Shown here: positions 43,654 through 58,016 of the stretch, one piece after another
Position numbering within the stretch: position 1 is the first letter of the stretch
How the letters are laid out: every line of letters starts with the position of its first letter
Assembly: GCA_023228045.1 (NCBI GenBank)
Contig: JALOBY010000007.1
Coordinates: 1 to 60,230, forward strand
Source: Endomicrobiales bacterium
GTDB lineage: Bacteria; Elusimicrobiota; Endomicrobiia; Endomicrobiales; JALOBY01
Length of the DNA: 60,230 nt
Reading direction: 5' to 3'
The notes under the pieces: model-generated
What the model saw: the letters and a program-made list of their open reading frames with translations, nothing else
What the model was told of the DNA's origin: nothing
Databases searched by the model: none
Made by a program: the position numbers and the translations under genes

Positions 43654-46044
43654 TTACTTTGTTGCCTTTTCAAGCCCAAGCGATAACACTTCGTCCATAT
43701 GCGCTACAGGTATCATTTTTATTTTTTTTAAAATATCTTTTGGAATTTCAATAAGGTCTTTTTTGTTGCCCTCCGGAAAAAGAATTGTTGTTATGCCATC
43801 ACGGTAAGCGGCAAGTGTTTTTTCTCTTAGTCCGCCTATGGCAAGCACCCTGCCACGCAAAGTAATTTCACCTGTCATTGCAAGATCTTTTTTTACCGCC
43901 CTGCCGGTGCTTACCGATGCAAGAGCGGTTGCCAGCGCTATACCGGCACTTGGCCCGTCTTTAGGAACAGCACCTTCGGGCACATGAATATGAAAATCTA
44001 AGTCCTTAAAGCTGTCTTCGTCAATTTTTAATTTTTTTGCGGAAGAACGCACATAAGATAACGCTGCCTGAGCCGACTCCTTCATAACATCTCCAAGTTT
44101 GCCGGTTAAGCTTAATATGCCTTTACCTTTCATTTTATTTACTTCAATTGTAAGGGTTTCCCCTCCGGCTTCCGTCCAGGCAAGGCCAGTTGCCACACCA
44201 ATGTTGTTTGCAGCTACACTGTCTTTTGAAAACTTTGGTATACCCAAAAACTTTTCTAAGTTTTCAGGGGTTATTTTAATAGAAGTTTTTTTCTCCAAGT
44301 CCATTGCTTTTGTAGCTTTTCGGCAGAGGTTCGCGCTTTCTCTCTCCAGATTTCTTACACCTGCCTCGTGCGTATAGTTTTTAATTAGCAGTTCCATGGT
44401 TTTAGGTGTAATAACAAGCTCTCCATCTTTTAAACCGTGTTCTTTCATTTGCTTTGGCAGTAGAAATTTTTCTGCTATTTTTAACTTTTCTTCTAATGTA
44501 TAACCCGGGAACCTTATAACCTCCAAACGGTCTAATAGAGTGCTTGGAATGTTGTAAAGCGTGTTTGCGGTTGTAATAAACATTACCTTTGAAAGGTCGT
44601 AGTCAAGGTCAAGGTAGTGGTCTACAAAAGCATAGTTCTGCTCTGGGTCAAGCACTTCAAGCAATGCCGAAGAAGGGTCGCCCCTAAAATCGCTGCCCAT
44701 TTTGTCAATTTCATCTAAAATAAATACAGGGTTGTTTGATTTTGCTTTGCGCATAGATTGTATTATTCTGCCGGGCAATGCGCCAATGTAAGTTCTTCTA
44801 TGTCCTCTTATTTCGGCCTCATCTCGCACACCACCCATAGATATGCGTACAAAATTTCTGCCTAAACTTCTGGCAATTGATTTAGCTATAGATGTTTTGC
44901 CGACACCCGGAGGCCCGACAAAACAAAGAATAGGGCCTTTTATTTTTTGAACGCGTTTAAGTACAGCCAGGTATTCAGTAACTCGTTCTTTTACTTTTTC
45001 TAAACCAAAGTGGTCTTGGTCTAATATAGTTTGTGCTTGCCTAAGGTCGTAGTTATCTTTTGTACTTTCGTGCCACGGAAGTGCTATAAGCCAGTCAATA
45101 TATGTTCTTATTACCGTTGCCTCAGGTGAAAAAGGCATCATTTTTTCTAATCTGGCAATTTCTTTATCGGCCGCTTCCTGTGCCTCTTTAGACATTTTTG
45201 CGGCTTTAATTTTTGCTTTTAATTCTTCTAACTCCTTGGCATAATCATCTTTTTGTCGCAGTTCTTTTTGTATGGCCTTCATCTGTTCTGTAAGGTAGTA
45301 CTCTTTTTGGCTTTTCTCTATTTGAGTACGCACGCGGCTTTGTATGCGCCTATCAATATTTAAAATTTCAATTTCAGAACTTAAAATTTGCACAAGCTTT
45401 TCAAGGCGTTCACTTGGGTTTGCAAGTTCAAGAATAGATTGTTTTTCAAAAACTTTTACGGACATGTGAGAAGCAATTGTATCTGCCAGGCGGCCCGCGT
45501 CGTTTATGTTTGCAACGGCAACACCTATTTCAAGCGGGATTCTTGCGTTTAATTTAACATACTGTTCAAAAAGTGAAACCGAACGGCGCATAAGCGCTTG
45601 CGTTTCAGGAGTTAGCACCGAAACTTCGCTAAGCAGGTTCAACCCAACTTCCACATAGCCCCTTTCGTGCATATGAAAGTCGGTCCAACGAGCGCGCAAC
45701 AAACCCTCTACCAAAACTTTCAAAGTGCCATCGGGCATTTTTAGTAACTGCAACACATCGGCAACAGTACCTATTTGGTAAATATCATCAGGAGAAGGGT
45801 CTTCTATTTGCAGTTGTTTTTGCGTTGCAAGAAATATTAAGCGATTACCCGACATTGCCTCTTCAAGCGCTTTTATAGATTTATCGCGGCCAACGGCAAG
45901 TGGCACAACCATGGCAGGGAAAACAATCAAATCACGCACCGGTAATAATGGAAGCTTATTTGGTATATCTTCTAATTTGCTTGTTTTGGTTTGTCTATCT
46001 ACTTCGCTCATATTTTCACTCCACTCTAAACCCGGCTTTTGCAA
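43654..46044 (-). CDS. lon: ATP-dependent Lon protease.
   Basis: Walker [10 protein letters not shown]. Ser-Lys dyad region DGPSAG. 796 aa. Confidence 0.9.
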
Positions 46045-46052
46045 CAGCTGGG

Positions 46053-47312
46053 TTAAACAGCCTTATTAAGTTTAACATTATCGTTTATATTTTTTTTATA
46101 AGTTAATTTTACTGCCGAACTGCCGCGCACAACGTCTTCATCAACTATAGCGCTTTTAAGATCTTTTTTATCGGGTAATTCATACATAACATCTATTAAA
46201 AGCTTCTCCATTATTGAACGAAGCCCTCTAGCTCCTGAGCCACGCACTAATGTGGCTTTGGCAATTTCAACTAATGCACCGTCGGTAAAATCTAATTCAA
46301 CACCTTCTATTGAAAACATTTTTTTATACTGTTTAATAAGCGCGTTTTTTGGCTCTTTAAGCACACGCACAAGGTCCGCCTCTTTTAACTGCTCAAGCAC
46401 CGCAACACTGTGCAACCTGCCGACAAACTCAGGTATAAGCCCGTATTTTATTAAGTCCTCGCTTTGCAATGAAGTCATAAGCTGGCTGTAAGCATAATCT
46501 TTTCTTGTTTTTATTTCCGAATTAAAGCCCATATTTTTTGTTGTTAAACGCGCCTGCACCACTTTATCTAAACCCTCAAACGCGCCGCCGCAAATGAATA
46601 GTATATTGGTGGTATCTACCTTTATGTATTCCTGTTGAGGGTGTTTTCTGCCTCCTTGCGGTGGCACATTGGCAATAGTGCCTTCAAGTATTTTTAAAAG
46701 TGCCTGCTGAACACCTTCGCCCGATACATCGCGGGTTATTGACGGATTATCGGATTTTCTTGAAATTTTATCAATTTCATCTATGTAGATAATGCCTTTT
46801 TCGGCGCGTTTTACATCAAAATTCGCATTTTGCAATAAACGAAGAATTATGTTTTCTACATCTTCCCCAACATAACCGGCCTCGGTAAGCGTGGTTGCGT
46901 CCGCTATGGCAAATGGCAAATGTAAAAGCTTTGCAAGCGTTTGGGCAAGCAGTGTTTTTCCTGTGCCTGTCGGCCCAATTAAAAGTATGTTTGATTTTTG
47001 AATTTCAACATCTGATTTTTTGTCTTTGGCGCAATCAAGGCGTTTATAATGATTGTACACAGCCACACTGAGAACTTTCTTTGCGTGCTCCTGGCCTATA
47101 ACAAATTCATCTAAGAATTTTTTTATGCCGCTTGGGCTTGGCAAGGTGGTGATGTTCTTTTTTTCTTCTTCACTTTCAAGCTTATTAAGAAGTTCTATAG
47201 AGCTCCTTAGGCACTCTTCGCACACATACGCCCCGTTACCACCTATCATTTTGCCATTGCCATTTTCCACGGAACCGCAAAAAATACAGCTTGTTTTTTT
47301 TATGTTGTCCAT
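46053..47312 (-). CDS. clpX: ClpX ATP-dependent protease ATPase subunit.
   Basis: N-terminal zinc finger C-x2-C ... C-x2-C. Walker A GPTGTGKT. Confidence 0.9.
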
Positions 47313-47313
47313 A

Positions 47314-47922
47314 TTATTTTTTCCTGCTTTCTATTACTTCATCAATTATGCCGTAACTTAGTGCTTCCTGCGCAGACATATAATAATTACGCTCGGTGTC
47401 TTGCTTTATCCTGTCCACACTTTGACCTGTGTGCTTTGACATAATTTCTATAAGTTTTTCTTTGGTTTTAAAAAGTTCTTTTGCCTCAATATCTATATCT
47501 GTAACCTGACCAGAAAGTCCCTCGCCATAAATTAGCGGCTGGTGTATCATAATCCGGCTACGCGGCAGAGCATAGCGTTTACCTTTAGTGCCGGCGGCCA
47601 ATAAAAGCGCACCAAAAGACATTGCCATACCCATACATATAGTTGTAATGGGGCATTTTATGTATTGCATTGTATCGTAAACGGCAAGGCCCGCGCTAAC
47701 TAAACCACCAGGTGAGTTGATGTATAGGTTTATATCTTTTTCGGGGTCTTCGGCTTCAAGGTAAAGCAATTGGGCAATTATTAGATTTGCTGAATCGGTG
47801 CTTACCGCGCCGCCAACACCACCAACAAAAATAATGCGGTCTTTTAATAACCTGGAATATATATCATAGCCAACGGCCGAACCCTGGTTCCATCTTTCTA
47901 TAATTGTTGGAATAATGCTCAT
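47314..47922 (-). CDS. clpP: ClpP proteolytic subunit.
   Basis: 202 aa. Catalytic region [11 protein letters not shown], with the His and Asp residues present. Confidence 0.9.
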
Positions 47923-47973
47923 AAGAACTCCTATGTTACATTTGCCATCTGTTTTTTACTAAAACATTTTTAA

Positions 47974-48190
47974 GTCGCGGGGCTATTCTGCCCCTGCACC
48001 CCTGTGATACTTTTCTTTGTATGCCCAAAGAAAAGTAACCAAAAGAAATGCACCCCCTGATGGCTATTCACTCGTTTTTTTTGGCGGCTGTGGAACTCGC
48101 CTCGCCACTGCGTGTCGGACTCAGACAGTCCTCGCCGAAACCTCCAAAAAAATACTCGTTCATTATCAGCCAATGGGGAATAACAAGCGA
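47974..48190 (+). mobile_element. Family-A MITE copy (right end truncated, no B insert) in the tig-clpP intergenic region.
   Basis: Alignment to 38787-39230. Confidence 0.75.
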
Positions 48191-48228
48191 GGACGTAAAA
48201 AGAACTTATTAAGAAAATATTTCTGTGT

Positions 48229-49521
48229 TTATTTTATTTTTGCTTTTTCTATAAGGAACTTAAATATTTTTTCTTCTTTTAAGTGTGCTGTTATTTTGTC
48301 TGAATTTTCCGAAAAATATTTAATTGTCTGTTCTTTACTTGAGTGGTTTGCGGCTAAGAGGCGTTCTTTTTCCGCGTTCATATCATTCGAAGTAACTTCA
48401 AGCTTTTCTTTCTCTGATATTATATTGAGTATGTAAGAAAGCCTTACTGTTTTTTCGGCTTCTTTTTTATAATTTTCTTTTTCTGCCTCTATCTTTTTTT
48501 TGCGTTCAGGTTCCGGCATTCCATAAGAACGCATATACTCATCGGCCTTTGATGAGATAAAGCTCATTTGCTCCTCTATAAGCACAGCTGGAACTTCAAA
48601 GCTGTTGGCTGCAAGAAGCTCGTCCACTATTTGTTTTTCCAAGTCAGATTCAACACGGCTCTTTTCTTGCGCTTCGAGCGATTGTTTTAGTTTTTCTTTA
48701 AGCTCAGAGATATCTTTTAAACCAAGGTCTTTGGCAAATTCGTCATCAATATTTGGCAGTATCTTATCTTTTATCTGGTTTACCTTTGCCTTAATAAGTA
48801 CTTTTTTGCCAGCCGCTTTCTTAATCGGTGAATCTGCAGGAAAGCTTACTTCAACTTGGCGCTCATCGCCTTTTTTTGCCCCAAGCAGGCCTTCTTGCAA
48901 ACCCTCTATAAGCTGTTTTGAAGAAAGATCTATTAACTGATTTTTGGCGGATAATTCTTTAAGGGGTTCATTATCAACAAACGAATCGTAATCTAATAAA
49001 GCAAAACTGTTTGTGCCAATCACAGTGTCCTGTGATGCATCTTTTAAGCGCGCATTTCTTTCGCACTGTTCTTGCAACAACTTTTCAACCATTTCGTCGG
49101 TGACTGGCTTATCTTCTTTTTTTATTTTTATGCCTGTATAGTCATTTATAGTAACTTTTGGATGAACCTGCGCCGTAATATTAAAAACACATGGTTTATT
49201 AAATTCAAAACTAAACTCGCCAATTTGCGGATATGTTATAGGGTCAATATTTTTCTCTTTAAAAGCGGAGAAAACAGCCGCCTGAATAACTTTTTCAGAC
49301 GCGCGTTCTTTTGCAAGCCCTTCAAAGTTTTTTCTTACAAACTCTTTTGGTGCCTTGCCTACCCTAAAACCGGGAACCCTTGCCTCATTTTGTATTTGGG
49401 TGAATACTTTTTCAACGGTATTAACAACTTCCCCTTCCGGCACCTCTACTTTTAAAGTTACTGAACATGGCTTACTTTCAACAACGCTAACTTTCAGGTT
49501 TTCCATTACAATTGGCTCCAA
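48229..49521 (-). CDS. tig: Trigger factor.
   Basis: 430 aa. Ribosome-binding N-terminal domain, FKBP-like PPIase region and C-terminal domain. Confidence 0.85.
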   Translation of the reverse strand: MEPIVMENLKVSVVESKPCSVTLKVEVPEGEVVNTVEKVFTQIQNEARVPGFRVGKAPKEFVRKNFEGLAKERASEKVIQAAVFSAFKEKNIDPITYPQIGEFSFEFNKPCVFNITAQVHPKVTINDYTGIKIKKEDKPVTDEMVEKLLQEQCERNARLKDASQDTVIGTNSFALLDYDSFVDNEPLKELSAKNQLIDLSSKQLIEGLQEGLLGAKKGDERQVEVSFPADSPIKKAAGKKVLIKAKVNQIKDKILPNIDDEFAKDLGLKDISELKEKLKQSLEAQEKSRVESDLEKQIVDELLAANSFEVPAVLIEEQMSFISSKADEYMRSYGMPEPERKKKIEAEKENYKKEAEKTVRLSYILNIISEKEKLEVTSNDMNAEKERLLAANHSSKEQTIKYFSENSDKITAHLKEEKIFKFLIEKAKIK

Positions 49522-49545
49522 TTAATTTAATTAACATAACAATTA

Positions 49546-49627
49546 TGCGGACGGAGGGAGTTGAACCCACAAGCCTTGCGGCACTAGATCCTAAGTCTAG
49601 CGCGTCTGCCAGTTCCGCCACGTCCGC
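49546..49627 (-). tRNA. tRNA-Leu (anticodon TAG), with a long variable arm.
   Basis: Cloverleaf built by hand. Acceptor stem GCGGACG/CGTCCGC. Anticodon loop CTTAGGA. T-loop GGTTCAACTCC. Confidence 0.8.
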
Positions 49628-49688
49628 AAAATTTGACTATAAAAACACCAAACCTTTGAGTATACCCAAAGGTCTTTGTAAAGAAGAG

Positions 49689-49761
49689 TGCGCCGCATAG
49701 GATTTGAACCTATAACCTGACGATTAAGAGTCGCCTGCTCTACCAATTGAGCTAGCAGCGC
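49689..49761 (-). tRNA. tRNA-Lys (anticodon CTT).
   Basis: Acceptor stem GCGCTGC/GCGGCGC. D-arm GCTCAATTGGTAGAGC. Anticodon loop CTCTTAA. T-arm TAGGTTCAAATCCTA. Confidence 0.75.
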
Positions 49762-49853: not shown

Positions 49854-51083
49854 TCAAAGATAAACTATATTTTCATTATGATAAAGCGAGAGAAATAATA
49901 GCAAGTATTCCTTCAGATGCCGTGTTATAAGAAAATTATTTCTTATATGTTCTTTGCCATTCTGCCCAAGTTTTTTGGCATATTCAGGATTATTCAAAAA
50001 CTGTTTTACGGCAAATGCCATACCTTCCGTTGAATAACTTAAAAGACCGGAAAACTTGTGAGTTATTTGAAGCGGTATCCCGCCGACATTTGACGCAACA
50101 ACAGGTTTCCCCTTCCAAAGAGCTTCTGTAACAGTCAGCCCAAACCCTTCCCTGACCGACTTTTGAAGAATTACCGATGACGCTCTTTGTATAGCATTAA
50201 CCGCAATATCATCCTGGGGAAGAAGCAACAGATGTATGTCCGGGTCATTTCCTGCTTTTTCTTTTACTTCTTCAAAAACTTGTACCCCTTCAGGGTCATC
50301 CGCGGCAAGCCCACCAGCCAAAATTAATCGGCAATCCACATATTTTTTGACGAGTTTGTAAACTTCAATTACCCCTATTGGATCTTTGAGCCGGTCAAAC
50401 CGGGAAAGTTGGGCTATAATCGGCTTATCTTGGGGAACATCATATTTTTGAAGAACGGCATTAATTTCATGCTGCTCAAGCTCTTTATTCTTGTCACTTA
50501 ACGGATCTATTGAAGGAGCAATAAGAAATTGCCTAATCGGAAGTTTATGCGAATATTTTGGCGAAGAAAAAACCGAGGCATCATATTTTTGAATATAGTC
50601 CAAAAGAAAATCCCATACTTTCATATCAGGTTGAGAAACATCTACATGGCATCGCCATATCCACTTATTTCCTTTCTTTTTTTTGATAAGGCCTATCGGT
50701 TGAGGATCATGGACAAATACTATATCACCTATGATTTCAAATTCCCGCGCATTTTTTTCATTAGTTTCAGCAAATATCTCAAAATCTCTTTCCTTTAATT
50801 TAGCATCTTTTCCGTGCAGTGCATTATGAAATTTCTTTGTTACTTCAAAAAACTGTTCCCCTCCCTTTATTACATCCCAGCGAGAATTTACTCCTAAATC
50901 CAATAACAAAGGTACCATTCGGTTAAGTATCTCGGCAACACCTCCACCAACCGCAGCAGAATTAAAGTGCTGTATAAGCTTCCCTTTAAGTTTTTGGGCG
51001 AGCAAATGCAAGTCATCAATGTTGACCTGGCCGACAATTGGTATATAATCATTTATTTTCGGCATTTTACACCGCCTTTTCAA
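49854..51083 (-). CDS. treT: Trehalose glycosyltransferring synthase (GT4).
   Basis: The N-terminal region NSAAVGGGVAEILNRMVPLL ... RWDVIKGGEQFFEVTKKFHNALHG closely resembles archaeal TreT. 409 aa. Confidence 0.7.
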   Translation of the reverse strand: MKRRCKMPKINDYIPIVGQVNIDDLHLLAQKLKGKLIQHFNSAAVGGGVAEILNRMVPLLLDLGVNSRWDVIKGGEQFFEVTKKFHNALHGKDAKLKERDFEIFAETNEKNAREFEIIGDIVFVHDPQPIGLIKKKKGNKWIWRCHVDVSQPDMKVWDFLLDYIQKYDASVFSSPKYSHKLPIRQFLIAPSIDPLSDKNKELEQHEINAVLQKYDVPQDKPIIAQLSRFDRLKDPIGVIEVYKLVKKYVDCRLILAGGLAADDPEGVQVFEEVKEKAGNDPDIHLLLLPQDDIAVNAIQRASSVILQKSVREGFGLTVTEALWKGKPVVASNVGGIPLQITHKFSGLLSYSTEGMAFAVKQFLNNPEYAKKLGQNGKEHIRNNFLITRHLKEYLLLFLSLYHNENIVYL

Positions 51084-51726
51084 CTAATTTAATTACAATT
51101 TTTCTTAAATCTTCCATGGCAAAGGTGTAAGGATCAATATTTGAAATTGCGCTGGCAAGTTCTTTGTTTCCTAACGACATTTCAACCCACCTAGAAAAAT
51201 CGTTGCTTTCATTTTCAAGCCGCAGACGCGATTCAAATATATGAAAGTATAAAGAATTTATTGAGATTTTTTTTAATGCTTCACAAAACTCATTTAGGTT
51301 ATTTACAACATAGGGAGTGCGAATAATAAAACTAGTAGATTTGACAAAGTAAAATATTTTATTGCTTTTAACTACTCTGTTCGCTGTTGTTGTGTTTTGG
51401 TTAATATATTTTTCAACTCTTGAAATTATTTCTTCTCTCAATTCCCGTATAGTGCTAAATTGAACAATATCAATAGAAGCAACACTTTCCGCAAGTTCAT
51501 CTTCGCCAAGGGCATCACGCACCCAATAAGCAAAATCATTTGGAGGTTCCGGAGAATAAAATTGGTGCTGCTGTAAAAAACGGTGAGTATGATGATAAAT
51601 GCTTGAGCCCGGAACAATTTTTAGCATCTCAAGCAACTCATTTAGTGTCTCAGCTTTTAGGCCAGTTGCCTCAGATAAATGCAATCGGGTATAGAATTGA
51701 AATGAATTTTTTGCTTTTTTGCCCAT
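51067..51726 (-). CDS. Uncharacterized protein made of two internally duplicated ~90 aa units, embedded in the trehalose operon.
   Basis: 219 aa. Repeated pattern NDFA.WV..ALG.[DN]ELA..[VI]..ID ... LR..I. Overlaps treT by 17 nt and abuts otsB. Confidence 0.5.
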   Translation of the reverse strand: MGKKAKNSFQFYTRLHLSEATGLKAETLNELLEMLKIVPGSSIYHHTHRFLQQHQFYSPEPPNDFAYWVRDALGEDELAESVASIDIVQFSTIRELREEIISRVEKYINQNTTTANRVVKSNKIFYFVKSTSFIIRTPYVVNNLNEFCEALKKISINSLYFHIFESRLRLENESNDFSRWVEMSLGNKELASAISNIDPYTFAMEDLRKIVIKLVEKAV

Positions 51727-51727
51727 T

Positions 51728-52516
51728 TCATTTACTCCTTATTGCAACCATTTTTAGAAACTCTAAAACTTGACTGACATTTTTTAGCGCGTATTTGGCA
51801 GAAGAATTTTTTTTGTATCCAACCCGCACCGTTAAACCATTTTTTTTAAGAGCACTAAAGGCCGATTCATCGGTGCGATCGTCGCCAATATAAACAGGAA
51901 TTATTTTTTTACCGGAATACATAATTTTGTATTTTTTCACTAACCACAGCGCGGCTTTCCCCTTATCCCATGCTACATTTGGCCTTATTTCAATAACCTT
52001 TTTCCCATAATGAATTTTAATTAACTGTTTTTGCACTGCCTTTGAAACAATGTCTTTTATTATTTTTTTTATTGCAGAAACATTTTTTTTATCTACCAAA
52101 CGGTAGTGAACACTCAATGTAAAACCTTTGTTTTCAAAAATTACACCCTTTTTACCAATAACCGCAGTTTCCATTTCCTGCGCGATATCTTGTATTTTTT
52201 TTTGCATTGGCGCATTTAGCATAGAGTTAAATTTAAAATGCGGTGTCGTAATTTCTAAACCGTGGTTACCCACATAAATTGCTTTTTTAATATTTATTAC
52301 TTTACTTATTTGCTCACGGGCTCTTCCGCTTATTACAGAGAAAATTACTCTCTGAGATTTGGCTACAGAAGACAGAATTTTTTTTGTTGACTCGGGCAAT
52401 ATAGCAAGTTCAGGCTTTGGATATATTGGAACTATTGTTCCATCATAATCAAGCATCAATAAAATAATATTATCGGAAAGTTTTTCAACAAGATACTCTG
52501 GCGTAATTTGGCGCAT
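51728..52516 (-). CDS. otsB: Trehalose-6-phosphate phosphatase (HAD family).
   Basis: HAD motif I LDYDGTIVP. 262 aa. Immediately downstream of otsA. Confidence 0.8.
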   Translation of the reverse strand: MRQITPEYLVEKLSDNIILLMLDYDGTIVPIYPKPELAILPESTKKILSSVAKSQRVIFSVISGRAREQISKVINIKKAIYVGNHGLEITTPHFKFNSMLNAPMQKKIQDIAQEMETAVIGKKGVIFENKGFTLSVHYRLVDKKNVSAIKKIIKDIVSKAVQKQLIKIHYGKKVIEIRPNVAWDKGKAALWLVKKYKIMYSGKKIIPVYIGDDRTDESAFSALKKNGLTVRVGYKKNSSAKYALKNVSQVLEFLKMVAIRSK

Positions 52517-52517
52517 T

Positions 52518-54812
52518 TTATTCCTTTTTTAATGAAATCAGGTCAGAAATAATTGTTCCTGCCCATTTATATACATTATTGTTTTCAATTATAGAACGCA
52601 TTGCTTTCATGCGTTTTTCTTTTTCTTCTTGAGGCATTTCTACCGCAAGTTTGAATGCTTCGGCAAACTCTTCAATTGAATATGGGTTTATAAGAATTGC
52701 ATCAGTAAGTTCCCTTGACGCGCCGGCAAACTCTGAAAGTATAAGCGTTCCATTTAAATCATTTTTTGCGGCAACATATTCTTTGGCAACAAGGTTCATA
52801 CCATCGTGCAACGAACTTACAACACAAATATCGGCAAGCTGATAATATGGTTTAATTTCTTCACTTGAAAAATGCTGTTTAAAGTAAATTATCGGCTTCC
52901 ACGAGTTTTCGGAGTGTTTCCAGTTTATTTTTTCAACCAATTCATCTATTTCGGCTATCAAATCGTGATATTTTTTTATTTGAGTTCTGCTTGGAGCCGC
53001 CAACTGAACTAAAACAAACTTGCCTTTATATTGAGGATATTTTTCAAGAAATCTGTCTATGGCAAGCATTCGCTCAGCAAGGCCTTTTGTGTAATCTATT
53101 CTTTCAACACCAAGGGCAACAATTTTACCTTCCAGGTTTAACTCACTTATTATTTTTTCTTTTTGACTGGTAATTGCGCCTGCCAATTTTGGGTCGGCAA
53201 AATTATCAACGCTAATTGGGTACTGCTTAATAAATGTTTCCTTGCCCGAACGCACTACCGAGAATCTTTCGGCATCTACCCTGCTTTCAAGAAAGCGGTT
53301 TGCGGTATCTAAGAAATTGTTGCAATGGTACTGTATATGAAACCCTATAAGGTCGCAACCAAGCATACCATCTAAAATTTCTTTTTGATAAGGGCAAATT
53401 GCGAATACTTCGGGGTTTGGCCATGGTATGTGCCAAAACATTGCAATTTTAGCATCCGGTCTTTTCTTTTTAATCATTCTGGCAAGCAACGTAAAGTGAT
53501 AGTCCTGAATAAAAATAAAAGGCGCGCTTTTTGGCAGTTCTTCAATAATAGAGTCCGCAAACTTTTGATTTACTTTCTTATACATCTGCCAGTCAGATTC
53601 ACGGAAAGTAGGGCGATTGTGCGTTATATGGCATAACGGCCACAAACCTTCATTAGAGAAACCAAAATAATACCCCTTCTCTTCTTCTTTTGATAGCCAG
53701 ATTCTTTTGAGAATGTAATGGATATCGTTTGGCGGGACACCAAGTTTATCTCTGGAATTTACAAATTGTTTGTCGGCATTGCCGCTTCCATGAGCTATCC
53801 ACATACCGCCGCAAGAGCGCATAACAGGGTCAAGCGCCGTAACAACACCGCTTGCAGGGCTTACACACTTTGCTTTACCTTTGTGTTCATCGGAAACATG
53901 CATATAAGGTTCCCTGTTTGAAACAACAAAGAGAGAATCTTCGCCAAGTTTCGCATTAACTAAATCTTTAAGTTTTGACGGCGTCCACTTTTTTTCATCT
54001 TTAATTCGTTCTTTCGCGCTTTCTGACACAGATTTTCGCGCAATTCGTAAGTTTAATGCAACCTGTTCTATTTCACTGGCAAATTTACCCAGTTCATCGG
54101 TATATTTATAATTAAGATTCTCGTCGGTTTCACCTTTATAAAATTTTTGCAGCCAAAAGGTAATTCTTCTAACCGGCAATAGAAATATCTGCCTTTGAAG
54201 CACAATTATAATTATAGAGATTAAACTTATTAAAAAAATAAGCCCTATACTCATCTTTTTCCAAAAAACAACAAGAAGCTCATTTACATAAGAAACATCA
54301 TACACAACCTCAACAACTCCCAAAAACTGGCCACTTTCATCAGTAACCGGCAATGCATAAGTATATAGATTATATTTGCCGTAATTATTAAAACCTTCAT
54401 ATACTTTCTTTTCAGAAAATATTTTTTTAACATAAGATTTTTCTTCTTTTATCCAATTAGATAATCTTTCGGTAAAAGCAAATATATTTCCATCCTTTGT
54501 ATAAAAAATCCCACCCTGAAACCGCTCTCTCTTCTGAAATGTACCGACCAGCTTCTGGGCAGTCTTTTTGTCTTTAGATTCCAACACACTGCCCGCTGAA
54601 ACCTCAATACTTTCAGCCACATTTTTGGTTTTTCTTTTTATATCGTCAATGAGTTTTTCTTTTTGAAACTCAATCTGGAAAAACCCGGCAATAATAAAGC
54701 CGGCAGTAATGACTATCAGTATGGGTAATAAGAATATCAGAATTTTTTTCATTACATCCCCTTTTAATATAAATGCCACTTTATGGCTTTTGTCAAACAG
54801 CAACCCGACCAT
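52518..54812 (-). CDS. otsA: Trehalose-6-phosphate synthase (GT20) fused to an N-terminal membrane sensor module (TM, Cache-like periplasmic domain, TM, HAMP-like linker). The likely true start is the Met at 54752 (MKKILIF), which has an AAAAGGGG ribosome-binding site.
   Basis: The C-terminal ~480 aa align to OtsA (LFVVSNREP ... HDYH-like IQDYHF ... GFHIQYH). The N-terminal 250 aa have two hydrophobic helices that flank a ~145 aa domain. Confidence 0.75.
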   Translation of the reverse strand: MVGLLFDKSHKVAFILKGDVMKKILIFLLPILIVITAGFIIAGFFQIEFQKEKLIDDIKRKTKNVAESIEVSAGSVLESKDKKTAQKLVGTFQKRERFQGGIFYTKDGNIFAFTERLSNWIKEEKSYVKKIFSEKKVYEGFNNYGKYNLYTYALPVTDESGQFLGVVEVVYDVSYVNELLVVFWKKMSIGLIFLISLISIIIIVLQRQIFLLPVRRITFWLQKFYKGETDENLNYKYTDELGKFASEIEQVALNLRIARKSVSESAKERIKDEKKWTPSKLKDLVNAKLGEDSLFVVSNREPYMHVSDEHKGKAKCVSPASGVVTALDPVMRSCGGMWIAHGSGNADKQFVNSRDKLGVPPNDIHYILKRIWLSKEEEKGYYFGFSNEGLWPLCHITHNRPTFRESDWQMYKKVNQKFADSIIEELPKSAPFIFIQDYHFTLLARMIKKKRPDAKIAMFWHIPWPNPEVFAICPYQKEILDGMLGCDLIGFHIQYHCNNFLDTANRFLESRVDAERFSVVRSGKETFIKQYPISVDNFADPKLAGAITSQKEKIISELNLEGKIVALGVERIDYTKGLAERMLAIDRFLEKYPQYKGKFVLVQLAAPSRTQIKKYHDLIAEIDELVEKINWKHSENSWKPIIYFKQHFSSEEIKPYYQLADICVVSSLHDGMNLVAKEYVAAKNDLNGTLILSEFAGASRELTDAILINPYSIEEFAEAFKLAVEMPQEEKEKRMKAMRSIIENNNVYKWAGTIISDLISLKKE

Positions 54813-54860: not shown

Positions 54861-54911
54861 ATGTTTAATTATAATTTATTGAATGTTGATATGCGAATAA
54901 ATGCCAAGTAC

Positions 54912-55975
54912 TTATGAAAATATCAGGGAAAAAACAATAAAATAGACAACCATAAAAACAAAACCAATCGGCAACCCTATTTTCGCCCATTCCCAACTTG
55001 TTATCTTAAGCCTTCCTGCAGAAATTATATTTGGAATATTCCCGGGAATAAGCATTCCACCTGATATCAAAAACCCTATAAGTATATACTTAATTTGAGG
55101 CAAATTCATTTTAGGGCTTATTTCTGCAGCAGCCAAAGTTGCATTGTCTAAAACAGCCGAAAGAGAATTTATCCAGTAAAGTAGCGTAGTCGGAAATTTT
55201 ATTATGTACATATCAACAATAGGTTTGAAGCCGGAACCAAGAAGTATCAAAGCCATGATAAAGATATAAACTTTCCCAGCATAAACAAAAATTTCTTTAA
55301 TATTACTGCTTTTTTCTTCTACTAATCCTTTTATGTTTTCTCCTTTTTTAACAGAAGGGTTTATTATACTGCCTATTATTGCTAAAAGCAAAATGCCCGG
55401 CAAGACATATAGGCCAAGCTCCCTGAATAAGAAAAAGAAATCGGCATTGAATGGCTCTCCTTTTAGCTTTGCTATAGTAATGGTTGATAGCGGTTCTCCT
55501 ATAGGGGTAAGCACTGCGCCCAGCCCAATAGAAAAGCAAGAGAGTACCGTAAGCTTTATTTCATATTTCTTGTCCAATTTTAATGCACTAATAATTTCAA
55601 CAAGTATTATAGCTGCCATAATAGCCGTAATAATACTTGAAAGCAATCCTAAAACCATAATCAACACAAAACAGAATAATTTTGAACCGATTTTACGCTC
55701 TATATTAACGACGGTATTTGTTATTTTATTTCTGAAAAAATAAACTAAAAACCCTATCGTAATAACAGCCAAAGTTATCATTATTGGTTCAACTAATGAT
55801 TCCCTAATAAGGTGCATTGACCACGCCGGTTCTATTCCCCAAAAATGCGAAATACTTACCACTAACACACCCATGATAAAAAGAAATATTTCCAAATTTT
55901 TTTCTATAACATGCAATGTAAGAGGTAAAATTAATACAAGAATAATGGCACTGATCAACCCTATTTCTATCACTA
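54912..55975 (-). CDS. Polytopic membrane protein, transporter-like (possibly the DUF1646 cation-transporter family). It starts at a GTG codon.
   Basis: 353 aa with ~10 predicted TM helices. The first codon is GTG at 55973-55975. Confidence 0.5.
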
Positions 55976-57002: not shown

Positions 57003-58016
57003 ATGCAATTATCTACCACAAAAACTTCAACTATCTTATTTATTGTTCTTATATCACTTTTCGCAGGGGCAATAATTTATTTTCAAACATTGCCTTTCAC
57101 GCAAAAAACTATGCAGAGCGCATTGGAGCAAAGAATTAATGCCATAGCAAAAATTTCTACCCCGGAAATCCAACAAGCACTTAATGCAAAAGATGATATA
57201 GCCTTGCTTATTGCACTTGAAAAACTTTCAAAACAAGAAAGTATTGAGAGCATTTTTGTATTAGATAAAGAATCTCTCGTAATTGCGCACACAAACACTC
57301 AAGAATGGGGCAAAAAATACCCAATTGTAACAAGCGATATATTTGAAAAGTTAAAGGCGCAAGCGTATGTTAAAACCAAAATTGCTCAAAACCCTTATTA
57401 CGCTTTCTCACTTTCAAATGAACATTTGCTTTTTTTGCGCGCATCTACCAAAGAGCAAGCTGCGGCATTAGACACCTTTTTAAGAACGACCCTACTTTTA
57501 TGCGTTATACTGATAATTGTACTTTCTTTTGTATTTTACTACATCTCAAAGTTGAGCGTAACAAATGCAAGAAACAAATTGCTTAAAGCTCTTACTAACT
57601 CTTCGCAACAACTGCCAAAAGACCTATCAAGAATGCTCGGTGAAATTAAACTTCGCCTAAACCCAATTGCTCAAGATACAAAAGCAAAAACAAATCAAAG
57701 TAAATTTTTTGCATCTTGTATGGAACATATTTGCAACAAAGCAAACGGGCTGATTATTTTTGACATAGATAACACCCTGATTTTTGCAAACCAAAACGCA
57801 ATGAAGACATTTGGAATAAAGGAACAATGCAGCATCCACCTGCTTGATGCAATAAAAAATACACAAACACTATCGCAAATTGAAAGTGCAATTAAAACAA
57901 AAAAACCAATATCTCTATTTGACGCTCAAAATAATTTAAACATAAAAACCACAGCATTTTTTGACGAGCACACCTTTATTGGCTTAGCCATAGAAACACA
58001 AACACCCTGCAAGTAA
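57003..58016 (+). CDS. Membrane sensor-like protein (TM, periplasmic domain, TM, cytoplasmic PAS-like domain) with no output domain.
   Basis: 337 aa. Two hydrophobic helices. The C-terminal GLIIFDIDNTLIFANQNAMKTFG resembles a PAS core. Confidence 0.55.
   Translation: MQLSTTKTSTILFIVLISLFAGAIIYFQTLPFTQKTMQSALEQRINAIAKISTPEIQQALNAKDDIALLIALEKLSKQESIESIFVLDKESLVIAHTNTQEWGKKYPIVTSDIFEKLKAQAYVKTKIAQNPYYAFSLSNEHLLFLRASTKEQAAALDTFLRTTLLLCVILIIVLSFVFYYISKLSVTNARNKLLKALTNSSQQLPKDLSRMLGEIKLRLNPIAQDTKAKTNQSKFFASCMEHICNKANGLIIFDIDNTLIFANQNAMKTFGIKEQCSIHLLDAIKNTQTLSQIESAIKTKKPISLFDAQNNLNIKTTAFFDEHTFIGLAIETQTPCK

What the first reader, a model, noticed from the sequence alone, without database searches (positions are those of the whole stretch)
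52518..54812. OtsA fused to a two-TM periplasmic sensor (Cache-like) and a HAMP-like linker: a signal-gated trehalose-6-phosphate synthase?
The GT20 OtsA catalytic region begins near residue 280. It is preceded by TM1 (ILIFLLPILIVITAGFIIAGFF), a ~145-aa extracytoplasmic domain whose pattern resembles Cache/PAS-like sensor domains of histidine kinases (GGIFYTKDGNIFAFTERL ... YALPVTDESGQFLGVVEVVYDVSYV), TM2 (IGLIFLISLISIIIIVL) and a ~50-aa amphipathic HAMP-like segment. This is the topology of a transmembrane receptor with the kinase replaced by a metabolic enzyme. It suggests direct control of trehalose synthesis by an extracellular or membrane signal such as osmolarity or a ligand. The neighbouring gene at 57003..58016 has the same TM-periplasmic-TM layout with a PAS-like tail.
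Basis: partly seen in the sequence, partly recalled or inferred. Interest (0 to 1): 0.7.

Follow-up and report, generated by a model that had tools for sequence, protein, structure and literature searches.

The report
Membrane receptor fused to trehalose-phosphate synthase
This gene encodes a trehalose-6-phosphate synthase whose N-terminus is a complete membrane-receptor module (periplasmic Cache sensor, two membrane helices, HAMP relay) of the kind normally attached to histidine kinases; the fusion is conserved in at least about 180 mostly uncultured bacterial species, which suggests that an outside signal switches synthesis of the stress-protectant sugar trehalose directly.

Summary
The ORF (52518..54812, minus strand; true start almost certainly M21 at 54752, giving 744 aa) has the layout TM1, single Cache/PDC domain, TM2, HAMP, conserved adaptor helix, then a GT20 OtsA domain with its catalytic motifs intact. 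Fold searches match WalK, CitA and DctB sensor domains. A profile-profile comparison puts the linker on Pfam-verified HAMP domains (probability 96.8%). The nearest non-OtsA relatives of the N-terminal module are histidine kinases whose HisKA starts where GT20 starts here. It is not a misassembly: 78 of 80 related genomic loci carry the same continuous ORF, and the 68 full-length orthologs among them are 742-752 aa apart from two start-trimmed ones. The path from sensor to active site is indel-free in 139 sequences. The gene heads a conserved cassette (sensor-OtsA, OtsB, DUF5752, TreT-like GT4), joined by an MscS channel in 24 of 80 loci. Databases call it only "trehalose-6-phosphate synthase", and I found no paper describing the architecture. 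The best reading is a dimeric receptor-enzyme in which a periplasmic signal gates T6P synthesis. Gating, ligand and direction of signalling are inferred, not shown. I rate it a new variant of a known kind, of moderately high interest.

The parts
52518..54752 (-). Sensor-OtsA gene, 744 aa from the likely true start M21. The mechanical ORF extends to an upstream ATG at 54812 (764 aa).
   Evidence: ORF; SD AAAGGGG and start position of homologs; NCBI's 744-aa call MCK9582519.1 on a 60,230-base contig.
54758..54764 (-). Shine-Dalgarno AAAGGGG, 5 nt upstream of the M21 ATG.
   Evidence: Read directly from the sequence.
54868..54897 (-). Sigma-70-like promoter match (TTCGCA-18-TATAAT) upstream of the gene. 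This is a consensus match only.
   Evidence: The number of matches in the region is not above the shuffled expectation, so this is weak.
54678..54743 (-). TM1 (residues 4-25), preceded by a cytoplasmic MKK.
   Evidence: Kyte-Doolittle peak 3.0; helix in both AF2 models; charge distribution fits an N-in topology.
54255..54677 (-). Periplasmic single Cache/PDC sensor domain (residues 26-166): long helix, short helix, then a five-stranded sheet with two helices between strands 2 and 3.
54198..54254 (-). TM2 (residues 167-185), followed by a cytoplasmic QRQ...RR.
   Evidence: Kyte-Doolittle peak 3.0; a continuous helix 154-205 in the models; 3 positive and 0 negative charges after TM2.
54033..54197 (-). 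HAMP domain (residues 186-240): AS1 LLPVRRITFWLQKFYKG, connector, AS2 ELGKFASEIEQVALNLRIARK. AS2 carries a family-specific EVEQVAL motif in place of the usual FNxMA.
   Evidence: hhalign probability 96.8%, E 2.5e-10 against Pfam-verified HAMPs of homologous kinases, reversed control 0.1%; Af1503 HAMP hits at 191-238; helix-connector-helix in the models; most conserved part of the N-terminus at 70% pairwise identity.
53937..54032 (-). Linker (residues 241-272): an extension of AS2 to about residue 251, a short break (KDEKKWT), then a conserved adaptor helix WTxxKLxDLxxAKLG that leads straight into GT20 strand 1.
   Evidence: Secondary structure; invariant A246, R249, W256, L261, A267, G270; the span from AS2 to the catalytic Arg is 52 residues in 136 of 139 sequences.
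52521..53936 (-). GT20 (OtsA-type) trehalose-6-phosphate synthase catalytic domain (residues 273-744).
   Evidence: Pfam PF00982 E 6.6e-127; PDB Tps1 5huv E 2e-79 and E. coli OtsA E 1e-72; 34% identity to verified E. coli OtsA with the SNR, YY..LWP, DYH, WHIP, RxDYxKG, PSR and DGMNLVAKEY motifs kept and invariant in the family.
51728..52516 (-). OtsB, trehalose-6-phosphate phosphatase. Its start codon follows the otsA stop after a 1-nt gap.
   Evidence: Pfam Trehalose_PPase E 3.8e-45; TIGR00685 164.7 bits against a cutoff of 68; follows sensor-otsA on the same strand in most related loci.
51067..51726 (-). DUF5752 protein, an internally duplicated 219-aa cytoplasmic protein and a conserved third gene of the cassette.
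   Evidence: Pfam PF19027 E 2e-70; the two halves are 35% identical, E 4e-13; conserved position in related loci.
49854..51083 (-). TreT-like GT4 glycosyltransferase, the conserved fourth gene of the cassette. The start codon is uncertain.
   Evidence: Pfam TreT_GT1 E 4.5e-55 plus Glycos_transf_1; NF041139 TreT at 392 bits, below its cutoff of 775; conserved in related loci.

Best explanation
The protein is a receptor-enzyme. It is very probably a homodimeric inner-membrane protein whose periplasmic single-Cache domain detects a small molecule or a physicochemical cue. The signal would pass through TM2 into a HAMP four-helix bundle, and from there through a fixed-length linker and a conserved adaptor helix into the first strand of a catalytically competent GT20 trehalose-6-phosphate synthase. 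This would switch T6P synthesis on or off with no phosphorelay and no transcription. OtsB, encoded next, would convert T6P to trehalose. With the TreT-like GT4, DUF5752 and, in many genomes, an MscS channel, the cassette would act as a self-contained osmotic or stress module. Shown here: the domain architecture, its homology to kinase sensor modules, intact catalytic motifs, conservation of the fusion, of the linker length and of the cassette. Inferred: dimerisation, that the sensor regulates activity, the direction and sign of regulation, and the nature of the signal.
For: Architecture: two TM segments; Cache/PDC fold; HAMP; GT20 with its catalytic motifs. Module swap: homologous kinases have the same TM-Cache-TM-HAMP layout with HisKA starting at ~266, where GT20 starts (~273) in this protein. 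Selection on the sensor: HAMP has 70% and the Cache core 58% mean pairwise identity across 69 species from several phyla, against 74% for GT20. About 30 periplasmic positions are at least 90% conserved, many of them polar or aromatic residues on the sheet and the helix after strand 2 (Y84, T94, R96, W100, Y130, Y132, E148, D152). Rigid coupling: there are no indels from TM1 to the HAMP Pro in 139 sequences, and the AS2-to-catalytic-Arg span is 52 residues in 136 of 139, while a GT20 surface loop varies from 131 to 137. The adaptor helix runs directly into strand 1, which carries the SNR arginine; from my recollection of the OtsA structural literature this is the glucose-6-phosphate-binding Arg of E. 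coli OtsA. Context: 48 of 58 loci with enough flank have OtsB, DUF5752 and TreT downstream, and MscS is adjacent in 24 of 80 loci. This parallels the experimentally studied T. tenax msc-gt-tpsp stress operon (PMC3634074).
Against: There is no experimental evidence of any kind. No ligand can be named. The window protein does not reach Pfam's thresholds for Cache and does not match Pfam HAMP at E <= 0.1, so both assignments rest on fold and profile-profile evidence. The linker is not one continuous signalling helix: both models show a break at residues 252-257, so the way a HAMP output would reach a GT-B enzyme has no precedent. The GT20 N-lobe (residues 281-379) is modelled with low confidence. 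The GT20 score is below NCBIfam's OtsA equivalog cutoff (436 against 565 bits), so donor and acceptor specificity are not certain. The high conservation and lack of indels could partly reflect recent horizontal spread of the cassette and not mechanical constraint.
Confidence: 0.6

Rival explanations
1. The N-terminal module is only a membrane anchor or scaffold. It places OtsA at the inner membrane, for example next to MscS, a transporter or a lipid-linked acceptor. The Cache and HAMP parts are evolutionary leftovers of a kinase ancestor and no longer signal.
For: The module clearly derives from a kinase-type sensor. The helix break between HAMP and GT20 is unlike the continuous signalling helices of kinases. 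Co-occurrence with the membrane protein MscS would fit a localisation role.
Against: A mere anchor does not need a 140-residue periplasmic domain with about 30 near-invariant polar and aromatic positions. It also does not need a HAMP that is the best-conserved part of the N-terminus, or a strictly length-invariant linker across phyla. Vestigial domains normally decay or are lost, yet nearly all 68 full-length orthologs are 742-752 aa (two are shorter after start trimming).
Confidence: 0.17
2. Signalling runs inside-out, as in LapD. The GT20 domain acts as a cytoplasmic sensor of UDP-glucose, G6P or T6P occupancy, and the HAMP relays that state outward, so that the periplasmic Cache-like domain binds or releases a periplasmic partner.
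Against: The catalytic motifs are fully conserved and OtsB follows immediately, which points to an active biosynthetic enzyme. No conserved periplasmic or secreted partner gene was found around the cassette in 80 loci. WalK, CitA and DctB input domains match as well as or better than LapD.
Confidence: 0.06
3. The architecture is as described, but the GT20 domain does not make trehalose-6-phosphate. It would make a related phosphorylated glycoside such as glucosylglycerol-phosphate, or use an unusual NDP-sugar, so the regulated product is a different compatible solute.
For: All NCBIfam equivalog models score below their cutoffs (OtsA 436 of 565 bits; glucosylglycerol-phosphate synthase 340 of 569). 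The motif corresponding to E. coli GGL reads SG(V) and is invariant in the family.
Against: OtsA models score clearly higher than GgpS. The best solved homologs are all T6P synthases. The acceptor- and donor-binding motifs match OtsA. The next gene passes the T6P phosphatase equivalog cutoff (164.7 against 68 bits), and the cassette also carries a TreT-like trehalose synthase.
Confidence: 0.08

Closest known systems
WalK/YycG-type and related TM-sCache-TM-HAMP sensor histidine kinases
   Same: Same N-terminal module. It has two TM helices flanking a single Cache/PDC domain, then a HAMP. Full-length WalK is the best structural match over 270 columns. Homologous kinases found with the module's profile have a Pfam HAMP at ~186-237 and the same overall spacing.
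   Different: There is no HisKA or HATPase_c domain, and no response-regulator gene was found conserved next to the cassette in 80 related loci. The output is a GT-B metabolic glycosyltransferase. AS2 of the HAMP carries a family-specific EVEQVAL motif in place of FNxMA, and the post-HAMP linker has a helix break and a conserved adaptor helix instead of a continuous helix into a DHp bundle.
Canonical soluble OtsA/OtsB trehalose pathway (E. coli OtsA, fungal Tps1)
   Same: A GT20 catalytic domain with conserved substrate-binding and catalytic motifs, 34% identical to E. coli OtsA, followed by an otsB gene.
   Different: Characterised OtsA enzymes are soluble. By my recollection they are regulated mainly at the transcriptional level or by cytoplasmic effectors; the abstract of PMC6879718 (listed) reports allosteric regulation of mycobacterial OtsA by 2-oxoglutarate and 2-phosphoglycerate. 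This protein adds a 272-residue transmembrane receptor module in front of the enzyme.
Thermoproteus tenax msc-gt-tpsp trehalose stress operon (PMC3634074)
   Same: A GT20 trehalose-phosphate synthase is encoded together with a GT4 glycosyltransferase and a mechanosensitive channel (an MscS family member in 24 of 80 related loci here). In that system enzyme activity is controlled post-translationally, because the GT4 activates TPS by complex formation.
   Different: In T. tenax the TPS is fused to TPP and has no membrane sensor, and control comes from the GT4 partner. Here TPS is fused to a Cache-HAMP receptor, OtsB is separate, the GT4 is TreT-like, and a DUF5752 gene is always present. This window itself has no MscS.
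Receptor-type nucleotide cyclases and other enzymes gated through Cache/HAMP modules (diguanylate cyclases, class III adenylate cyclases)
   Same: The principle is the same: an extracytoplasmic sensor and a HAMP directly control a fused cytoplasmic catalytic domain in a dimer. Two GGDEF proteins share this very sensor module.
   Different: Those outputs make second messengers, and, from general knowledge of those families, are active as dimers whose active sites form at the dimer interface. Here the output is a primary-metabolism GT-B enzyme whose active site lies between two lobes of one chain, so the gating geometry must be different.
LapD-type inside-out receptors
   Same: A TM-PAS/Cache-like-TM-HAMP layout. 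The periplasmic domain of a LapD ortholog is among the matches.
   Different: There are no GGDEF or EAL domains, no LapG-like partner is nearby, and the cytoplasmic domain is an apparently active enzyme.

Membership tests
GT20 trehalose-6-phosphate synthase (OtsA/Tps1) | A GT20 domain match above Pfam's gathering score | tested here: met
   PF00982 at 424.5 bits against a cutoff of 32.5, covering profile positions 3-471 of 473.
GT20 trehalose-6-phosphate synthase (OtsA/Tps1) | A score above NCBIfam's OtsA equivalog cutoff | tested here: not met
   TIGR02400 at 435.8 bits against 564.85; PRK14501 at 486.8 against 634. This is a divergent subfamily, and OtsA models still score higher than GgpS.
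GT20 trehalose-6-phosphate synthase (OtsA/Tps1) | Conserved acceptor, donor and catalytic residues of E. coli OtsA (recalled literature numbering: R9, Y76, W85, D130, H154, R262, K267, R300, D361, E369) | tested here: met
All are invariant in 70 homologs. The residue roles themselves come from my recollection of the OtsA structural literature.
GT20 trehalose-6-phosphate synthase (OtsA/Tps1) | A partner trehalose-6-phosphate phosphatase | tested here: met
   The adjacent gene 51728..52516 scores 164.7 bits on TIGR00685 against a cutoff of 68, and it is conserved downstream in related loci.
GT20 trehalose-6-phosphate synthase (OtsA/Tps1) | Enzymatic formation of T6P from an NDP-glucose and G6P | not testable with these tools
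   This needs a biochemical assay.
HAMP domain | A match to Pfam HAMP (PF00672) | tested here: not met
   No PF00672 hit at E <= 0.1 for the window protein. Among the 120 best homologs, only P0239 carries a precomputed PF00672 hit.
HAMP domain | Profile-level homology to bona fide HAMP domains, with the hallmark Pro (AS1), Gly (end of AS1) and (D/E)ELGxLA (start of AS2) | tested here: met
   hhalign of the 69-ortholog profile against Pfam-verified HAMPs of homologous kinases gives probability 96.8%, E 2.5e-10 over 60 ungapped columns; the reversed control gives 0.1%. Af1503 HAMP chains match profile positions 191-238 at E 0.06 to 0.8.
HAMP domain | Two amphipathic helices joined by a connector, directly after the last TM helix | tested here: met
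   AF2 shows a helix continuous from TM2 to residue 205, a connector, and a helix 220-251. Both helices are amphipathic with heptad-like hydrophobic spacing.
HAMP domain | A parallel four-helix bundle in a homodimer | not testable with these tools
   Only monomer prediction was available.
Cache (sCache/PDC) extracytoplasmic sensor domain | A PDC fold: long N-terminal helix followed by an alpha/beta sandwich with a five-stranded antiparallel sheet | tested here: met
Cache (sCache/PDC) extracytoplasmic sensor domain | A score above the gathering threshold of a Pfam Cache family | tested here: not met
   dCache_1 at 27.9 bits against 45; dCache_3 at 18.4 against 25.7. Some homologs carry precomputed sCache_3_2, dCache or CHASE8 hits.
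Cache (sCache/PDC) extracytoplasmic sensor domain | A location between two TM helices, outside the cytoplasm | tested here: met
   The two hydrophobic segments flank the domain, and the charge distribution fits an N-in, C-in topology.
Cache (sCache/PDC) extracytoplasmic sensor domain | Binds a ligand | not testable with these tools
   The conserved polar and aromatic positions are compatible with a pocket, but no model coordinates were available and no ligand can be named.
Two-component sensor histidine kinase | HisKA/DHp and HATPase_c domains | tested here: not met
   No such hits in the window protein. Only more distant relatives of the sensor module have them.
T. tenax-type trehalose synthase complex operon (MSC-GT-TPSP) | GT20 TPS fused to TPP, a GT4 activator and a mechanosensitive channel in one operon | tested here: inconclusive
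   GT20 and a GT4 are present. TPP is a separate gene. No MscS is present in the window, but one is adjacent in 24 of 80 related loci. Whether the GT4 activates the synthase cannot be tested here.
LapD-like inside-out receptor | A cytoplasmic c-di-GMP receptor (degenerate GGDEF-EAL) and a periplasmic protease partner | tested here: not met
   No GGDEF or EAL domain, and no conserved periplasmic partner gene in 80 loci.

The most novel reading that the evidence does not exclude
Cache-HAMP receptors can directly gate a GT-B metabolic glycosyltransferase. This would be a previously unrecognised output class for HAMP signalling and a transcription-independent 'receptor-enzyme' route that sets compatible-solute (trehalose) synthesis from outside the cell. 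Together with OtsB, TreT/DUF5752 and MscS it would form a portable osmostat cassette that has spread across Omnitrophota, Planctomycetota, Elusimicrobiota and other uncultured lineages. A more exotic variant that is also not excluded is bidirectional or inside-out signalling, in which the sugar-nucleotide or T6P state is reported to the periplasm.
Probability: 0.45. Interest if true: 0.8.

Novelty: new variant of a known kind. Interest (0 to 1): 0.66.

Why it matters
In studied bacteria, trehalose synthesis is thought to be controlled mostly by transcription and by cytoplasmic effectors. A receptor fused to the committed enzyme would be a different principle: an extracytoplasmic cue acting allosterically on a primary-metabolism enzyme across the membrane. 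For the signalling field it would add a GT-B glycosyltransferase to the short list of HAMP outputs. It would also give a simple enzymatic read-out (UDP release or T6P formation) for studying HAMP mechanics. For microbial ecology it concerns stress physiology in phyla with few or no cultured members (Omnitrophota, Elusimicrobiota and others). The family is present in at least 184 species-level genomes and in many metagenomic clusters, yet it is annotated only as 'trehalose-6-phosphate synthase'. The conserved partners DUF5752 and TreT-like GT4 also become candidates for a regulated trehalose synthase complex, like the one shown in Thermoproteus tenax.

Tried and rejected
1. Misassembly or frameshift fusion: rejected. 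78 of 80 independent loci have sensor and GT20 in one ORF, and the other two are cut by contig ends.
2. The upstream ATG at 54812 as the start: rejected in favour of M21.
3. A double Cache domain, as the Pfam dCache hits might suggest: rejected. The domain has one PDC module of about 130 residues.
4. A histidine kinase: rejected, because there is no HisKA or HATPase_c.
5. The word-indexed search with the N-terminus found only 6 fragments and gave a false impression of rarity. The exhaustive profile search, the genome scan and the full-length search corrected this.
6. DUF1646 (upstream gene) and the 57003..58016 membrane protein as parts of the system: rejected. They do not co-occur with the cassette in related loci; DUF1646 appears in 1 of 80 and the other in none.
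7. A search for further conserved neighbours gave mostly antisense shadow ORFs in GC-rich genomes. The only real addition was MscS.
8. A fold search against AlphaFold DB (afdb50), intended to find named organisms, was not possible because the library was unavailable.
9. Eight literature searches found no paper on a Cache/HAMP-OtsA fusion or on DUF5752. Absence from the searchable library does not prove absence from the literature.
10. My first regex-anchored linker-length measurement missed 53 of 139 sequences, so I replaced it with an alignment-based count.
11. Naming a ligand from the conserved residues: not attempted beyond noting their polar and aromatic character. No model coordinates were available, and the pattern did not match the dCache amino-acid-binding motif as I recall it.
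Full report
**Observation**

The window has an uninterrupted ORF at 52518..54812 on the minus strand, 764 codons long. Pfam places a GT20 domain at residues 294-758 with E 6.6e-127.

The annotated start needs correcting:
- The ATG at 54752 (M21) has a Shine-Dalgarno AAAGGGG 5 nt upstream.
- The homologs aligned start at the position of M21.
- An exact-sequence look-up shows that this window is a 60,230-base contig of an Endomicrobiales bacterium MAG, on which NCBI calls the protein as 744 aa (MCK9582519.1, "trehalose-6-phosphate synthase").

All residue numbers below count from M21.

**The N-terminal 272 residues are a receptor module**

Pfam gives only sub-threshold Cache hits (dCache_1 E 2e-6, dCache_3 E 1.7e-3). 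NCBIfam aligns residues 21-270 of the 764-aa ORF with the N-terminus of the kinase WalK.

I built a profile from seven orthologous N-termini (alignment A2). It hits WalK extracellular domains at profile positions 30-150 (5is1, E 0.003) and Af1503 HAMP chains at positions 191-238 (E 0.06 to 0.8) in the PDB. These hits are weak but fall exactly where expected.

An AF2 model of the module has mean pLDDT 77; the full-length model from a 70-sequence alignment has the Cache and TM regions at about 80-88. Both show:
- a long helix running from TM1 into the periplasm, then a short helix;
- a five-stranded sheet with two helices between strands 2 and 3;
- a long helix running through TM2 to residue 205;
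- a connector, then a helix 220-251, a short break, a helix 258-269, and GT20 strand 1 at 274-278.

For the HAMP, I compared the orthologs' profile (residues 183-245) with the Pfam-verified HAMP regions of homologous histidine kinases. hhalign gives probability 96.8% and E 2.5e-10 over 60 ungapped columns, against 0.1% for a reversed control. The hallmark Pro, Gly and (D/E)ELGxLA positions line up. AS2 has a family-specific EVEQVAL where HAMPs usually have FNxMA.

**The kinase really has been replaced**

An exhaustive profile search of 1.84 billion cluster representatives with the N-terminal module found 294 hits at E <= 1e-10.
- Of the best 150 hits, 36 carry a detectable GT20 segment. Full-length examples are 739-761 aa, with GT20 starting at residue ~272-276.
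- The weaker hits include classical sensor kinases with the same layout: TM, Cache, TM, HAMP at ~186-237, HisKA from ~266. There are also two GGDEF proteins.

GT20 thus sits at the junction where HisKA sits in the relatives.

**The enzyme looks active**

The GT20 domain matches solved T6P synthases: C. albicans Tps1 at E 2e-79 and E. coli OtsA at E 1e-72.

Our domain is 34% identical to it. The motifs that carry the substrate-binding and catalytic residues are all aligned: SNR, YY..LWP, DYH, WHIP, RxDYxKG, PSR and DGMNLVAKEY. They are invariant in 70 homologs. The residue roles themselves come from my recollection of the OtsA structural literature.

NCBIfam's OtsA equivalog cutoffs are not reached (436 against 565 bits). 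This is therefore a divergent subfamily, and donor specificity is open. The next gene passes the T6P phosphatase equivalog cutoff.

**Not an artefact, and not rare**

A scan of one genome per GTDB species found 184 species encoding a relative of the module. The best 80 loci are all MAGs. By the submitters' labels (my tally of the record titles; these labels may be imprecise):

| Label | Loci |
|---|---|
| Omnitrophota | 43 |
| Planctomycetota | 10 |
| Unclassified "bacterium" | 9 |
| Syntrophales / Deltaproteobacteria | 4 |
| Krumholzibacteriota | 3 |
| Elusimicrobiota | 2 |
| Spirochaetota | 2 |
| Proteobacteria | 2 |
| Nitrospirota, Kiritimatiellae, Victivallis, Actinomycetota, Clostridia | 1 each |

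In 78 of the 80 loci, the sensor and GT20 lie in one continuous reading frame. The other two are cut by contig ends. The 68 full-length orthologs are 742-752 aa, apart from two that came out shorter (702 and 712 aa) after start trimming.

A full-length database search returned 120 best hits that are all 734-864 aa (nearly all 740-770), with 92-100% coverage (97-100% for all but one) and 62-98% identity. Sources name them only "trehalose-6-phosphate synthase". Precomputed Pfam annotation shows GT20 (often with the generic GT1-group model PF00534) in most, with sporadic Cache or CHASE8 hits and a single HAMP hit.

**Evidence that the sensor is functional and coupled to the enzyme**

Mean pairwise identity across the 68 orthologs plus the window protein:

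| Region | Mean pairwise identity |
|---|---|
| GT20 | 0.74 |
| HAMP | 0.70 |
| Linker | 0.62 |
| TM1 | 0.61 |
| Periplasmic helices | 0.58 |
| Cache core | 0.58 |
| TM2 | 0.51 |

About 30 periplasmic positions are at least 90% conserved. Many are polar or aromatic residues on strands 1, 4 and 5 and on the strand 2/helix 3 segment: Q79, G80, Y84, T94, R96, W100, Y130, Y132, P135, G145, E148 and D152. An FQxRER motif just before strand 1 is also conserved.

Segment lengths in 139 sequences:

| Segment | Length |
|---|---|
| TM1 end to strand 1 | 54 residues in all |
| Strand 1 to strand 5 | 74 residues in all |
| Strand 5 to the HAMP Pro | 42 residues in all |
| HAMP Pro to AS2 Glu | 37 residues in 134 of 139 |
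| AS2 Glu to the active-site Arg of SNR | 52 residues in 136 of 139 |
| A GT20 surface loop, for comparison | 131 to 137 residues |

An invariant linker length, a conserved adaptor helix (WTxxKLxDLxxAKLG) and its direct entry into the strand carrying the acceptor-binding Arg are what a phase-sensitive mechanical connection would predict. Shared ancestry with horizontal spread could also contribute to this pattern.

**Context**

In the window, the sensor-otsA, otsB, DUF5752 and TreT-like GT4 genes abut or overlap (1-nt gaps and a 17-nt overlap).
- The same order follows on the same strand in 48 of the 58 related loci that have at least 3 kb downstream.
- Clustering of all other neighbouring ORFs found one further recurrent gene, an MscS-family mechanosensitive channel (Pfam MS_channel_1st, 2nd and 3rd). 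It lies directly upstream or between otsA and otsB in 24 of 80 loci. The window itself has none.
- This recalls the Thermoproteus tenax msc-gt-tpsp operon. There, a GT20 TPSP needs a GT4 partner for synthase activity, and a stress-response model involves the channel (PMC3634074).
- DUF5752 is an internal tandem duplication, with the two halves 35% identical at E 4e-13. It has no hits in the searchable literature.

**Mechanism proposed**

Shown here:
- the architecture;
- homology of the module to kinase sensors;
- intact catalytic motifs;
- conservation of the fusion, the linker and the cassette.

Inferred:
- the protein is a homodimer, as HAMP receptors are;
- a periplasmic ligand or physicochemical cue changes the Cache domain;
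- TM2 and the HAMP transmit this change;
- the adaptor helix alters the acceptor site, lobe closure or the oligomeric state of GT20, which switches T6P synthesis;
- OtsB completes trehalose synthesis;
- TreT/DUF5752 and MscS provide, respectively, a second or regulatory trehalose activity and release on osmotic downshock.

I put this reading at about 0.6.

Rivals:
- A mere membrane anchor with a vestigial sensor (about 0.17). The conservation data argue against it.
- A different GT20 product (about 0.08). OtsB, the TreT-like gene and the catalytic motifs argue against it.
- LapD-like inside-out signalling (about 0.06). There is no conserved periplasmic partner, and the enzyme looks active.

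**Comparison with what is known, and novelty**

The parts are all known: sCache, HAMP, OtsA and OtsB. The principle of a receptor fused to a catalytic output is known from kinases and nucleotide cyclases. What appears to be undescribed is a HAMP output that is a GT-B metabolic glycosyltransferase, and extracytoplasmic control of compatible-solute synthesis at the enzyme level.

Eight full-text searches found nothing on this architecture. A paper on Antarctic-lake Omnitrophota lists trehalose synthesis among the capacities of its MAGs in the passages I read, with no mention of a sensor. I therefore class it as a new variant of a known kind. The caveat is that the library does not cover subscription journals.

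The gene at 57003..58016 does have two TM-like segments (residues 6-33 and 153-187) and weak Cache, CHASE8 and DcuS-like hits in between. Its C-terminal "PAS-like tail" got no support from Pfam or PDB sequence searches, and the gene does not accompany the cassette elsewhere.

Noticed in passing
window 51067..51726 (-): The DUF5752 protein is an internal tandem duplication: its two halves of about 100 aa are 35% identical (E 4e-13). It has no TM segment or signal peptide. It always sits between otsB and the TreT-like GT4 in related loci. No paper in the searchable library mentions DUF5752. It is a candidate regulator or partner of the GT4 or GT20 enzymes.
   Followed up: partly
L001 4916..6001, L074 4859..6001, L049 4909..5997 (upstream); L011 8216..9316, L073 8048..9316, L009 3409..4464 (between otsA and otsB): An MscS-family mechanosensitive channel gene (about 350 aa, Pfam MS_channel domains) is joined to the cassette on the same strand in 24 of 80 related loci. 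None is present in this window.
   Followed up: yes
window 49854..51083 (-): A TreT-like GT4 (TreT_GT1 N-terminal domain E 4.5e-55, but below the NCBIfam TreT equivalog cutoff) shares an operon with OtsA and OtsB. It could be a second trehalose route, a trehalose-mobilising enzyme, or an activating partner as in T. tenax. The ORF's TTG start overlaps the DUF5752 gene by 17 nt, so the real start is uncertain.
   Followed up: partly
window 54693..54695 (residue 81 of the sensor, M21 numbering): A Cys on Cache strand 1 (the QGC motif) is present in 67 of 69 species orthologs but is Gly in the window protein and in its closest relative P0001. It may relate to a disulfide or to metal or ligand contact in most family members.
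   Followed up: no
window 54775..54787 (-): A small GC-rich hairpin followed by a T-rich run (GCCATAAAGTGGC ATTTATATTA) lies inside the 60-nt stretch between the upstream ATG (54812) and the M21 start. This fits that stretch being 5' leader and not coding sequence.
   Followed up: partly
window 57003..58016 (+): A 337-aa membrane protein with two TM-like segments (residues 6-33 and 153-187), weak sCache_3_2, CHASE8 and DcuS-like hits between them, and a C-terminal region of about 150 aa with no recognisable output domain. It contains an FDIDNTL string that resembles HAD motif I, but the region is too short for a HAD domain. It is not linked to the cassette in other genomes.
   Followed up: partly
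window 54912..55973 (-): A DUF1646 polytopic membrane protein (E 2e-112) lies directly upstream of sensor-otsA on the same strand. It is not conserved with the cassette: it was seen in only 1 of 80 related loci, and downstream there.
   Followed up: partly
window 36003..38501 (-): An 832-aa fusion of a sugar-1-phosphate nucleotidyltransferase (NTP_transferase plus a left-handed beta-helix) with a phosphoglucomutase/phosphomannomutase (PGM_PMM domains I-III). It could supply an NDP-hexose from hexose-6-phosphate, which may be relevant to the donor substrate for trehalose synthesis.
   Followed up: no
P0017 (913 aa; representative-library hit): A family member has about 170 extra N-terminal residues before the sensor module (profile positions 24-270 match residues 175-430), followed by a complete GT20. 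It is a longer architectural variant that I did not examine.
   Followed up: no
window 43654..49761 (-): Directly downstream of the cassette lie tRNA-Lys(CTT) and tRNA-Leu(TAG), then a housekeeping tig-clpP-clpX-lon cluster. This indicates an ordinary chromosomal location with no sign of a mobile element nearby.
   Followed up: no
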